Position numbers: made by a program. 11,183 nucleotides of DNA from a virus. Its lineage: Duplodnaviria; Heunggongvirae; Uroviricota; Caudoviricetes. Positions 9,001 through 11,183 of this stretch are shown piece after piece. Position 1 is the stretch's first letter. Each line of letters opens with the position of its first letter. Location of the stretch: IMG/VR virus record IMGVR_UViG_2703718798_000001, positions 1 to 11,183 of that record. The stretch is one strand, 5' to 3'.

Positions 9001-11183
9001 AGAACCCGGTGTCAATAAGTTTTCCTTTTGACACCTCATTTTTTAACTGCTGTGTAACAGCCTGTTCCGCTGTCAGTTCCCATCTGGCAATAAGCAATTT
9101 CTCCTCATAGTCGTCTTCGCTATCGCCATCAGGCACATCGTTTTTACTTCTCCTCAGATACGATATGTAAAAATCACGCCAGGCATCCAGATCCAGTTGC
9201 CCTCGCTTATTCGATATCGGAGCACCCGGCAATTTCTGCAATCTGCGAAGCTGGCGATCGGTCAGACTTAAATGCCTGGCAACTTCAGTCTGCGTAGCCA
9301 CTCCTCACCTCGCAAAAACTCTCACCTCACAATCACAACAAAACAGGTCATGTCCGGTTCACATGCCCATTTTTTGCGCATGTCCGGTTCACAGAAGACC
9401 TGTTTTTATATTTTTCATATAGTTAACTTGCAGAGAAACCGGACATGGATCCCGGAAAATTTTCATAAATAGTGAAAACCCGCGAGGTCGCCGCCCCGTA
9501 ACGGGTCCATATGCCGGAAAGGACCCGAGAAAATGATAATGTTTATCAGTTGCAACAAATCCAGTTTCTTCCACCATCGCACCGGACAGGCGACTATGAG
9601 GGGACAACGCCGCGCTCCGTTAACGCGGTAAACCCCGGTGTGTATCGTTTTTGATTATCCCCGCACACTCTCGCAGAGGAGTCTCCCTGTCGGGCTGCGG
9701 TCTCTGTTAATACGGGAATACGGCGACGATACGGCGCATCAGCAAAACTTATTTCAGGCACTGAGTGCGGATATATTCCTGCGCCCCTTCCAGCTGCTTC
9801 TGCATCATCATCAACCGCTCTCTGAGGGTGAAATAATCCCGTTCAACTGTGTCTGCCAGTCGGGGGCCGGTTGCATTATCCACGCCGGAGGTGGTGGGGG
9901 CTTCACGCACGGAGCCTGGACAGGTGGCGTTGATCCGCAGGCGCTTACGACCAGCGGCAACATCAGCACGCAGAGTTTCATTTTCAGCTCTCGCATCGGC
10001 TAATTCCCTCGAGTATTTTGCATCGAGCGCAGCAACATCGCGCTGGCGCTGCTGCATATCAGTAATGGTTGCGTTTGCCAGCTCCAGCTCTCTGGCTTTT
10101 TTATCGCGCTGCTCTTTGTAGGTGATGGCGTTATCGCGGTAATGATTCAGCCCCAGACTAAGCGCACCACAGGCCACCAGCAGGGCAATGATGACCACAC
10201 ACAGAACGCGGTTCATTTCACCACCAGCGTATCTGACCGATGAAATAACCGGAGGCCATAATCACAAACACCAGCCAGATAAGGATGAACTTCCAGGTGG
10301 ATAATTTTTCAGCCATCACTCAAATCTCCCGAATCAGTTTGCTAAAATCAAACACACTTTCTCCTTTGACTTTTCCGGAGTCAGGAAACACAAAACCCCA
10401 CCTGCTGCTAACAAACGGGTTTTTTACTTTTATTCACTTAGGTTTTGCCAGTTCGCAGGATTTCGTGTTATCCGTCCGCGTTGACCAACGTCATTTTTCA
10501 GCAAAATATTCTGCTTATCTGTCGATTCCCCAGCACGCCAGCGCGCTCTCCTGGTCACGACGGGATACCTGACCATAACAGTTATTTGAGCGAATACGGC
10601 AGTCTCTGCCACCGTCCTTAATCCACCAGCGAATCGCTTCACACGCTCCCCTGCGATCTCCTGCATTAATTCGTTTATAAAACGTCGACGTGAAACACTT
10701 ACCCGGGCCAATGTTGTAAGGACAGAATGACGCAATACCCGCTTTCTGGGGTTCAGTCAGTGGCACTCTGATGTTTTTCTCCACCCATGCCAGCGCCTTA
10801 TCCCGTTCAATGGCGTTAACCTGGTCGCATTTTTCCTTCGACAGCTTCATGCCAGGAATCACAGGATTACCATCCACCCGGGTGGCTCCACGGCAGATGG
10901 TCCAGATACCCACACCATCACGGTATGCCGTGGTGTGGTTACCTTCTTTTTCATCCAGAAACTGGTCGAGGATTTCAGGCGCAGAAGCCCCTGCGGCAAT
11001 CAACGCCAGAACGGCAGCCGACAGGCCGTATTTGATTTTTGTGTTCATGGATATATTAAATATTCAGCCGCTGTCCCAGGCCCACTAAATACGCACTTTC
11101 AGATAAGTCAGTCCGGGATGAAGCCAGTAAGCCGGCACTTTTTTAAAGGGCGGATGATCAAAATCACGAAGAAGTGCCTCCCG

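What the first reader, a model, noticed from the sequence alone, without database searches (positions are those of the whole stretch)
9302..9530. cos site with lambda-type cosN/cosQ but distinct cosB repeats, paired with a divergent Nu1 N-terminus
About 45 bp spanning cosN match the lambda left end almost base for base, and the other side resembles the lambda right end (cosQ). Between cosN and Nu1, however, the repeated elements are two direct copies and one inverted copy of catgtccggttcaca, which I do not recognise as lambda R sites. The Nu1 N-terminal (DNA-binding) region likewise differs from lambda while the C-terminal gpA-interacting half is lambda-like. This suggests a swapped packaging-specificity module (cosB plus Nu1 DNA-binding domain) in a lambda backbone.
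Basis: partly seen in the sequence, partly recalled or inferred. Interest (0 to 1): 0.45.

Follow-up and report, generated by a model that had tools for sequence, protein, structure and literature searches.

The report
Lambda-type cos with Sp4/Sp14-type cosB
This is an ordinary but correctly spotted phage DNA-packaging site: it has the lambda cutting and termination signals, but its own terminase-binding boxes and a matching small-terminase DNA-binding domain, a module common in E. coli prophages and already published for O157 Sakai prophages Sp4 and Sp14.

Summary
Window 9302-9530, read on the minus strand, is a lambda-family cos site. It has cosQ GGGTCCT, the lambda cohesive end GGGCGGCGACCT, and 44 of 47 left-end bases identical to lambda. 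Then comes a cosB with three boxes of core CATGTCCGGTT that match neither lambda nor phage 21 R sites.

The boxes are nonetheless R3, R2 and R1 by position. R3 lies at left-end bp 50-60, an IHF-like site at 72-84, and an inverted R2 at 108-118. Only R1 differs from lambda and 21, in orientation and spacing.

In ten relatives the R3 and R2 cores never vary, while the spacers do. Two TerS subtypes go with two box subtypes (TGTCCGGTT and T/C-TTCCGGTT).

The TerS N-terminus is a predicted MerR-like winged helix-turn-helix that the Pfam Nu1 model does not match.

The interpretation needs correcting. The backbone is phage 21-like (92.7% nt), not lambda. The swapped unit is cosB, all of terS and about the first 30-60 codons of terL.

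The same Nu1 and cos were published for E. coli O157 Sakai prophages Sp4 and Sp14. This cosB occurs in about 14% of complete E. coli genomes. I rate it a new member of a known kind, of low to moderate interest.

The parts
9520..9526 (-). cosQ (GGGTCCT), the packaging-termination signal. It starts 30 bp before the top-strand nick, as in lambda and 21.
   Evidence: It is invariant (7/7 columns) in the 10-sequence alignment and present at the same distance from the nick in 12 loci. The role is known from lambda (PMC4669245).
9485..9496 (-). cosN cohesive-end sequence GGGCGGCGACCT, identical to lambda and 21 (12/12). The putative nicks lie after window 9497 on the phage top strand and 12 nt further on the other strand.
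   Evidence: Nicking was not tested here; it is inferred from identity to lambda.
9450..9484 (-). Left-end bp 13-47: the right flank of cosN plus the I2-type segment CTATTTATGAAAATTT. It is 32/35 identical to lambda.
   Evidence: The I2 annotation is in the phage 21 record. The segment is labelled IHF in PMC2669165 Fig S8. Homology to phages with other cosB types stops at about 9452.
9437..9447 (-). R3 box core CATGTCCGGTT, left-end bp 50-60, forward in phage orientation. This is the predicted primary TerS binding site.
   Evidence: The position equals lambda R3 (bp 50-65, PMC9026076) and 21 R3 (bp 50-65). 10 of 10 columns are invariant across 10 relatives.
9413..9425 (-). I1-type IHF site candidate TAACTATATGAAA, left-end bp 72-84. 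It has 2 mismatches to YAANNNNTTGATW.
   Evidence: In 10 of 11 scored loci a match with 0-2 mismatches starts at bp 71-73; four relatives match the consensus perfectly. 21 I1 lies at bp 72-86. Binding was not tested.
9379..9393 (+). R2 box (core 9379-9389 = left-end bp 108-118), inverted relative to R3.
   Evidence: 11 of 11 core columns are invariant. The R3-R2 distance is 54 bp in all 12 loci.
9349..9363 (+). R1 box (core 9349-9359 = left-end bp 138-148). It has the same orientation as R2, unlike lambda and 21, where R1 has the orientation of R3.
   Evidence: It is conserved in the E. coli and E. kobei loci but absent or degenerate in seven of the 12 loci, so it is probably accessory.
8792..9301 (-). 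terS (Nu1 family), 169 aa, GTG start. The N-terminal aa 1-54 are a predicted winged HTH. An acidic linker follows. The C-terminal half is Nu1-like.
   Evidence: It is 99.4% identical to the annotated Nu1 of PhiR12 phages and matches Sakai Sp4/Sp14 Nu1 as far as the machine-read figure allows.
8641..8820 (-). terL codons 1-60, the divergent N-terminal segment that accompanies terS. The whole terL is 6892-8820. DNA identity to phage 21 resumes at window 8738, about codon 28.
   Evidence: Its role as the TerS-binding domain comes from the lambda/21 literature summarised in PMC9026076.

Best explanation
Window 9302-9560, read on the minus strand, is the cos site of a lambdoid prophage.

Termination and cutting signals. 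cosQ, the 12-nt cohesive-end sequence and the adjacent I2 segment are of the common lambda/21 type.

Initiation signal. cosB is a distinct class. It has two essential boxes of core CATGTCCGGTT: R3 at bp 50-60 from the left end and an inverted R2 at bp 108-118. They flank an IHF-type bend site at bp 72-84. A third, probably accessory box (R1) lies at bp 138-148.

Proposed mechanism, by analogy with lambda. IHF bends the DNA at I1. The two winged helix-turn-helix domains of a TerS dimer dock on R3 and R2. TerS, through its Nu1-type C-terminal half, holds the matching N-terminus of TerL so that the gpA-type nuclease nicks cosN about 50 bp away.

The module. cosB, terS and about the first 30-60 codons of terL form one co-inherited recognition module. 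Here it is recombined into a phage 21-type head operon. The rest of TerL, including its portal-binding C-terminus, is 21-like, as are the other head genes.

What is shown: the sequence architecture, its positions, its conservation, the two TerS subtypes that go with two box subtypes, and the mosaic boundaries.

What is inferred: TerS and IHF binding, nicking, and that lambda and 21 terminases do not use this cosB.
For: Architecture: positions match lambda and 21 within 1-3 bp (lambda R3 at bp 50-65 from PMC9026076). Enrichment of the box: 3 observed against 0.26 expected.

Conservation: in 10 relatives from E. coli, Enterobacter, Citrobacter and a metagenome, the R3 core is invariant in 10/10 columns and the R2 core in 11/11. 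The spacers are invariant in 7/47 and 0/19 columns. The hypergeometric probability for 21 randomly chosen columns is 1.6e-14.

Subtype pairing: six loci with recognition helix RQLRRLQK carry TGTCCGGTT. Six loci with R(R/W/Q)(L/F/V)R(D/N)LQK carry (T/C)TTCCGGTT. R3 always starts at bp 53-55 and R2 at 107-109.

Distant homologues of the DNA-binding domain: those from Microbulbifer, E. mori, E. whittamii and an unassigned metagenome contig (L016) carry a TTCCGGTTCCGG-type box just before terS (degenerate, CCGCTTCCGG, in Microbulbifer). An Azospirillum MAG carries TTCCGGTTCCG about 50 bp upstream of terS. One of them has a non-Nu1 TerS body next to a gpA-type TerL.

Fold: AlphaFold2 gives strand, helix 4-10, helix 15-22, wing, helix 38-54 at pLDDT about 80-86. 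The top Foldseek PDB hits are MerR-family winged HTH domains, plus the 6hn7 entry from the TerS/Rpp paper.

Terminase partners: TerL has the GpA_ATPase and GpA_nuclease domains. Its N-terminus diverges together with terS.

Function in vivo: phages carrying the module (PhiR12 series) are deposited with K-12 or E. coli C listed as host. The genome of Sakai Sp4, which carries this cos, is packaged (PMC2669165).
Against: There is no binding, nicking or packaging data for this exact locus.

The fold matches are weak statistically (Foldseek E 0.3-2). 1J9I itself was not among the listed hits. An HMM profile did not find lambda Nu1 in the PDB sequences. N-terminal profile-to-lambda similarity is marginal (E 0.014, probability 3%).

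The subtype pairing rests on two clades, so it may represent few independent events. Several TerS positions differ between the clades (residue 20 and wing residue 36), so the contacting residue is unresolved.

The I1 candidate in the window has 2 mismatches to the IHF consensus.

The R1 orientation differs from lambda and 21, so the higher-order complex may differ.
Confidence: 0.82

Rival explanations
1. The boxes are diverged phage 21 R sites, and the module has phage 21 packaging specificity. The 21 R consensus TTTCATGTCGG(G/A)CCTT resembles CATGTCCGGTT, and the head operon is 21-like.
For: Both boxes share the string CATGTC..GG. The rest of the head operon is 92.7% identical to phage 21.
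Against: At equal distance from the nick, R3 shares only 4/19 bases with 21 R3; the resemblance needs a 2-3 bp shift and a 1-bp indel. The cosN-to-R3 distance is critical in lambda (PMC4669245). The TerS N-terminus does not align with 21 gp1, since tblastn covers only aa 64-166. R1 has the opposite orientation.
Confidence: 0.05
2. The repeats bind some other protein, such as a late-gene regulator or a host factor, or form a structural or transcriptional element. TerS would then recognise something else.
For: A terminator-like hairpin overlaps R3. No direct binding data exist.
Against: No promoter-like site is found in 9250-9800. The hairpin is not conserved outside E. coli, for example in the E. 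kobei and Citrobacter loci. The boxes sit exactly where lambda and 21 R3 and R2 sit. The box subtype goes with the TerS subtype. The TCCGGTT core accompanies the same DNA-binding domain in distant taxa, and even on a different TerS body.
Confidence: 0.06
3. The site is an inactive relic in a defective prophage, and the repeats are preserved only by recent common descent.
For: Many E. coli lambdoid prophages are defective (PMC2669165). Most E. coli copies are 90-99% identical.
Against: All head and terminase ORFs in the window are intact and the same length as those of phage 21. The cores are invariant in loci whose TerS is only 60-63% identical and whose spacers are scrambled. Phages with the module are deposited with laboratory strains listed as host. 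Sp4 DNA with this cos is packaged.
Confidence: 0.05

Closest known systems
cos and Nu1 of E. coli O157:H7 Sakai prophages Sp4 and Sp14 (Asadulghani et al. 2009, PMC2669165, Fig S8)
   Same: It has the same Nu1 sequence (MATQTEVARHLSLTDRQLRRLQKLPGAPISNKRGQLDLDAWRDFYISYL...) and the same junction ...TTTTCCGGGATCCATGT after the lambda-like cosN/I2 segment. O157:H7 genomes carry two copies of this cosB at 94.6% identity.
   Different: The paper labels only cosQ, cosN and an IHF site, and its alignment stops at the start of R3. The R boxes, I1 and the module boundaries are not described there. The window's flank to the left of cosQ differs from the O157 copies.
Phage 21 cos and terminase (gp1/gp2; M81255)
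   Same: It has the identical cohesive end and cosQ. The layout is the same: R3 at bp 50-65, I1 at 72-86, R2 at 107-122. TerL from about aa 61 on and the rest of the head operon are 21-like (92.7% nt).
   Different: The R-box sequence differs (4/19 at R3). R1 differs in orientation and spacing. The gp1 N-terminal domain is unrelated by BLAST, the C-terminal half is 39.8% identical, and TerL aa 1-30 are 33% identical.
Phage lambda cos (cosQ-cosN-cosB with R3-I1-R2-R1) and gpNu1/gpA
   Same: Left-end bp 1-47 are 44/47 identical. It has the same cosQ and spacing, the same cosB logic, a Nu1-family C-terminal half (45.7%), and a gpA-type TerL.
   Different: R boxes match 3/19 at R3. The wing of the HTH is about 5 residues shorter, and an acidic linker replaces lambda's aa 55-85 segment. 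R1 is inverted. The head genes are not lambda-like (65-68% nt).
N15/Monarch packaging specificity (Feiss et al. 2015, PMC4669245)
   Same: It is another example of a lambda-like cos with conserved cosQ and cosN and its own TerS/R-box pair. The family also has both 'complex' (three R boxes plus IHF) and 'simple' cosB forms. The relatives found here likewise include short forms with R3 only or R3 plus R2.
   Different: R3 of N15 at bp 48-59 is GAGGTTGTTGTT (PMC4669245) against TCCATGTCCGGT here. N15 TerS aligns only to aa 59-164 (42.7%).

Membership tests
[quoted passage not shown] | A 12-nt cohesive-end sequence related to GGGCGGCGACCT, flanked by conserved CG dinucleotides | tested here: met
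   12/12 identical to lambda, in the context ttaCG|GGGCGGCGACCT|CG. Physical ends were not determined.
Lambda-like cos site | A 7-bp cosQ (GGGTCCT) upstream of cosN at the lambda distance | tested here: met
   Window 9520-9526. It starts 30 nt before the nick, as in lambda and 21, and is invariant in relatives.
Lambda-like cos site, complex cosB | R3 at about bp 50-65, an inverted R2, and an IHF site (I1) between them | tested here: met
   R3 at 50-60, I1 candidate at 72-84 (2 mismatches; 0-2 in relatives), R2 at 108-118 inverted. IHF binding itself was not tested.
Lambda-like cos site, complex cosB | R1 in the same orientation as R3 and opposite to R2 (PMC4669245, PMC9026076) | tested here: not met
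   R1 (9349-9363) has the orientation of R2. It starts 30 bp from R2, against 43 bp in phage 21.
Lambda-like cos site | Terminase actually nicks here and packages from here | not testable with these tools
   Only indirect evidence exists: Sp4 packaging (PMC2669165) and the deposited PhiR12 phage genomes.
Phage_Nu1 small terminase (Pfam PF07471) | A score above the Pfam gathering threshold | tested here: met
   67.9 bits against a cut-off of 30, E 1e-18, but only aa 49-150 match profile positions 62-163. hhalign against lambda plus 21 gives probability 99.8%.
Phage_Nu1 small terminase | An N-terminal winged-HTH DNA-binding domain homologous to gpNu1 aa 1-68 | tested here: inconclusive
   The predicted fold is strand-helix-turn-helix-wing-helix, and MerR-family domains are the top PDB hits, but with E 0.3-2. 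Sequence similarity to the lambda N-terminus is marginal (E 0.014, probability 3%). There was no hit in the PDB sequence search.
gpA-type large terminase | GpA_ATPase and GpA_nuclease domains encoded directly downstream of terS | tested here: met
   PF05876 E 4.4e-55 and PF20454 E 7.8e-71. terL overlaps the end of terS by 29 nt.
Lambda packaging specificity | R boxes of the lambda consensus (CGTTTCC...) and a lambda-type recognition helix | tested here: not met
   3/19 identity at R3. The TerS N-terminus does not align.
Phage 21 packaging specificity | R boxes TTTCATGTCGGnCCTT at the 21 positions and a gp1-type N-terminus | tested here: not met
   4/19 at R3 in register. gp1 aligns only from aa 64.
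N15/Monarch packaging specificity | R3 GAGGTTGTTGTT at bp 48-59 and an N15-type recognition helix | tested here: not met
   The window has TCCATGTCCGGT at bp 48-59 (against PMC4669245). N15 TerS aligns only to aa 59-164.

The most novel reading that the evidence does not exclude
This cosB/TerS pair, with R core (C)ATGTCCGGTT, and its sister subtype with (T/C)TTCCGGTT would be one or two further, experimentally uncharacterised packaging specificities of the lambda-like phages. They would be orthogonal to lambda, 21 and N15, and would have an inverted R1. Because the DNA-binding domain and its TCCGGTT boxes also occur on unrelated TerS bodies, recognition would be a transferable cassette. If so, the specificity class would decide which of the many co-resident E. 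coli prophages (for example Sp4 and Sp14 in O157) can package one another.
Probability: 0.55. Interest if true: 0.35.

Novelty: new member of a known kind. Interest (0 to 1): 0.25.

Why it matters
The result lets cos and its subsites be annotated in the roughly 14% of complete E. coli genomes that carry this cosB (roughly 21% match the wider cos-terS stretch), where nothing is annotated under the cosB matches listed. It predicts which prophages in a multi-lysogen share a packaging specificity and could cross-package or mobilise each other, as proposed for Sakai Sp4 and Sp14. It also offers a natural pair of closely related TerS/R-box subtypes for dissecting winged-HTH readout, or for building orthogonal cosmid and packaging systems. 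It does not change the concept: conserved cosN and cosQ with exchangeable cosB/TerS modules is textbook lambda/21 biology.

Tried and rejected
1. I expected the module to be phage 21's, because the head genes have exactly the 21 lengths. That was rejected: 21 gp1 aligns only from aa 64, and R3 matches 4/19.
2. A fourth R-like site at 9580-9590 (CCTGTCCGGTG, upstream of cosQ) has 2 mismatches. That is within chance (7 found against 3.5 expected), and it is altered in PhiR12_1, so I dropped it.
3. The profile search of PDB sequences for lambda gpNu1 (1J9I) found nothing relevant.
4. Two Foldseek searches gave only weak E-values. I used them as consistency evidence, not as proof.
5. The genome-contig scan with the N-terminal alignment returned only 4 loci. 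These were useful for distant relatives but not for statistics.
6. A text search for the box strings found only unrelated primer-type matches.
7. A search for a paper on the PhiR12 phages found none.
8. The promoter/terminator scan found no promoter. It found one hairpin overlapping R3 that is not conserved outside E. coli.
9. My first phage 21 register was off by 2 bp. I corrected it.
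Full report
**Orientation and gene map.** The window lies in reverse orientation relative to the usual lambdoid map. On the minus strand it encodes:
- a lysozyme (10515-11048);
- Rz (9749-10216) with an embedded Rz1;
- the cos region;
- a 169-aa small terminase starting at GTG 9301 (8792-9301);
- a gpA-type large terminase (6892-8820);
- W, portal, C/Nu3, D/shp and E homologues;
- head-completion and tail genes.

This map rests.

**Check of the observation.**
- *Repeats.* The 15-mer CATGTCCGGTTCACA occurs exactly twice, at 9349-9363 and 9379-9393. 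Its 11-nt core occurs once inverted, at 9437-9447. With one mismatch allowed there are 3 matches in the window against 0.26 expected, and no shuffle reached 3.
- *Left end.* Window 9452-9496 equals lambda bp 1-45 at 97.8%. Counted from the left cohesive end, bp 1-12 are identical to lambda and 21, and bp 13-47 are 32/35 identical to lambda.
- *Right end.* Left of the nick, CGGGTCCTTTCCGG (with cosQ GGGTCCT at 9520-9526) and GTTACG are identical to lambda and in the same register. The 45 bp overall are 26/45 identical.
- *Nu1.* The C-terminal part of the protein belongs to the Nu1 family and the N-terminal part does not match. tblastn aligns lambda only to aa 73-164 (45.7%), 21 to 64-166 (39.8%), phi80 to 64-164 and N15 to 59-164. 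Pfam PF07471 matches aa 49-150 only.

All parts of the observation hold.

**What the repeats are.**
- *Known positions in lambda and 21.* The phage 21 record M81255 annotates R3, I1, R2 and R1. After correcting the register (the left end is base 167 of that record), these lie at left-end bp 50-65, 72-86, 107-122 and 150-165. Lambda R3 is at bp 50-65, with protein contacts at bp 55-63 (PMC9026076).
- *Positions in the window.* The inverted copy lies at bp 50-60. An IHF-like sequence TAACTATATGAAA lies at bp 72-84. The two direct copies have cores at bp 108-118 and 138-148, and terS starts at bp 196.
- *Conclusion.* The boxes are therefore R3, R2 and R1 by position, with the usual R3/R2 inversion around I1. 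Their sequence is unrelated in register: 3/19 identical to lambda and 4/19 to 21 at bp 48-66, whereas lambda and 21 share 13/19.
- *One architectural difference.* R1 has the orientation of R2 and starts 30 bp from it. In lambda, 21 and others R1 has the orientation of R3 (PMC4669245).

**Evidence that the boxes are functional and belong to TerS.**
- *Source of the loci.* Homologues of the whole TerS occur in E. coli, Klebsiella, Salmonella, Citrobacter and Enterobacter at 60-99% identity. I fetched the DNA around eleven of them and scored ten, plus a PhiR12 phage. The eleventh, L016, is treated below among the distant homologues.
- *Shared layout.* In all 12 loci, GGGTCCT is followed 30 nt later by a lambda-like cohesive end. 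TCCGGTT occurs forward at bp 53-55 and inverted at bp 107-109. The best IHF-consensus match between R3 and R2 has 0-2 mismatches in the 11 loci where it could be scored (L019 could not be). It starts at bp 71-73 in ten of them and at bp 83, on the other strand, in E. kobei L015.
- *Two subtypes.* Six loci whose predicted recognition helix reads RQLRRLQK all carry TGTCCGGTT. Six with R(R/W/Q)(L/F/V)R(D/N)LQK carry (T/C)TTCCGGTT.
- *Limit of this pairing.* It involves two clades, and wing residue 36 (L/M against Y) differs between them as well. It supports 'TerS subtype goes with box subtype' but does not identify the contact.
- *Conservation footprint.* In a 10-sequence alignment of the first subtype, the R3 core is invariant in 10/10 columns and the R2 core in 11/11. 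The spacers are invariant in 7/47 and 0/19 columns. R1 is invariant in only 3/11 columns and is absent or degenerate in seven of the 12 loci. That fits the accessory role known for lambda R1 (PMC4669245).
- *Distant homologues of the N-terminal domain.* In Microbulbifer, Enterobacter mori, Escherichia whittamii and an unassigned metagenome contig (L016) a TTCCGGTTCCGG-type box lies just before the terS start; it is degenerate (CCGCTTCCGG) in Microbulbifer. An Azospirillum MAG has TTCCGGTTCCG about 50 bp upstream of terS. In E. whittamii the protein has no Nu1-family C-terminus yet precedes a gpA-type TerL. So the domain and its box travel together.

**The DNA-binding domain.** AlphaFold2 predicts strand, helix 4-10, helix 15-22, a wing, and helix 38-54, at pLDDT about 80-86. 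Foldseek against the PDB returns almost only MerR-family winged-HTH domains (HiNmlR, CadR, CueR, RacA, TipAL, SoxR, BmrR). It also returns 6hn7 from the TerS/Rpp study, at TM 0.59 and rmsd 2.6 A. All E-values are only 0.3-2. From my own knowledge, not tested here, the gpNu1 domain is described as MerR-like. Sequence evidence for homology with the lambda N-terminus is marginal: hhalign E 0.014 and probability 3%, although in the expected register. Full-length hhalign gives 99.8%, driven by the C-terminal half. My conclusion is that the fold class is the same and homology is unproven.

**Extent of the module and the backbone.**
- *Backbone.* Window 1566-8738 matches the phage 21 head operon at 92.7% nt over 7.2 kb. 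Lambda matches the same genes at 65-68%. Only the tail genes (window 2-1562) are lambda-like, at 81.6%. The portal, C, shp and E genes have exactly the phage 21 lengths.
- *TerL.* It is 33% identical to 21 gp2 in aa 1-30 and 67% in aa 31-60. From aa 61 to the C-terminus identity is mostly 97-100%, ranging from 77% to 100% per 30-aa block.
- *Left boundary.* Similarity to lambdoid phages with other cosB types stops at about window 9452, just before R3.
- *Module.* The exchanged unit is therefore about 8739-9451: cosB, all of terS, and the TerL N-terminus. In lambda and 21 that N-terminus is the TerS-binding specificity domain (PMC9026076).

**How it most likely works.** This is inferred from lambda (PMC4669245, PMC9026076). 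IHF bends I1. A TerS dimer docks its two HTH motifs on R3 and R2. The TerS C-terminal half holds the cognate TerL N-terminus, which places the nuclease on cosN. cosQ and cosN serve for termination and are interchangeable with lambda and 21. Because the R boxes and the recognition domain differ from lambda, 21, N15, phi80 and Gifsy-1, I expect a separate initiation specificity. This is not tested.

**Prior knowledge and prevalence.** The same Nu1 and the same cosN/I2-to-R3 junction are printed in Fig S8 of Asadulghani et al. 2009 for O157 Sakai prophages Sp4 and Sp14. That paper found Sp4 DNA packaged although its nu1 is disrupted, and attributed this to Sp14 terminase because the cos sites are the same. 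It labels cosQ, cosN and an IHF site, but not the R boxes. The 921-bp cos-terS stretch is covered at 80% or more in 1141 of 5426 complete E. coli genomes. The 149-bp cosB alone is covered in 777, including O157:H7 (two copies), O121 and E2348/69, and no feature is annotated under the cosB matches listed. Five PhiR12 phage records carry it. I found no paper in the searchable library that describes these boxes.

**Verdict.** It is one more member of a well-understood kind, it is very common, and its sequence is already published. The added value here is the subsite map, the module boundaries, the conservation and subtype evidence, and the inverted R1.

Noticed in passing
window 1566-8738 and 2-1562: The head operon is phage 21-type (92.7% nt to M81255, with identical gene lengths for portal, C, shp and E). 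The adjoining tail genes are lambda-type (81.6%). There is a mosaic joint near window 1562-1566.
   Followed up: partly
L023 (plasmid pSTEC711_1, NZ_CP041417.1 300483-300861): The same cosB boxes and terS type sit next to a different cosN/cosQ flank (cohesive end GGGCGGCAGACG, flank TTTCTGAAATCTGAAACACCGGG) on a 306-kb plasmid. So cosB/terS also recombines away from the lambda-type cosN. E. coli locus L010 has a related cosN type.
   Followed up: no
L007 1380-3178 (Escherichia whittamii); also L005, L006: A TerS-like protein has the same N-terminal domain (58% identity over 60 aa) but a C-terminal body with no Pfam Nu1 match. It is followed by a gpA-type TerL and preceded by GGGTCCT and a TTCCGGTTCCGG box, i.e. 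a 'simple cosB' arrangement reminiscent of N15.
   Followed up: partly
window 9304-9332: A direct repeat CTCACCTCGCAA / CTCACCTCACAA (on the phage strand TTGTGAGGTGAG...TTGCGAGGTGAG) lies immediately upstream of the terS GTG. It duplicates the Shine-Dalgarno-like GAGGTGAG and is conserved in all E. coli copies aligned. Its function is unknown.
   Followed up: no
window 10218-10316 (- strand): A 32-codon hydrophobic ORF ([32 protein letters not shown]) ends 1 nt before the Rz start codon, between the lysozyme and Rz. PhiR12_1 has small hypothetical ORFs annotated in the same interval.
   Followed up: no
window 9811-9996 (- strand): An Rz1-type ORF is embedded in Rz in another frame. It has 61 aa, a lipobox-like LVVSAC and a proline-rich segment (Rz Pfam hit).
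   Followed up: partly
window 9340-9349 / 9397-9406: A 10-nt perfect inverted repeat AAAACAGGTC/GACCTGTTTT brackets R1 and R2 in the window. It is not conserved in PhiR12_1 and is probably fortuitous.
   Followed up: partly
window 9349-9393 compared with M81255 273-331: The box core CATGTCCGG resembles the phage 21 R consensus CATGTCGG with one extra C, but it lies 2-3 bp out of register relative to the nick. Whether this reflects common ancestry of the two box types is open.
   Followed up: partly
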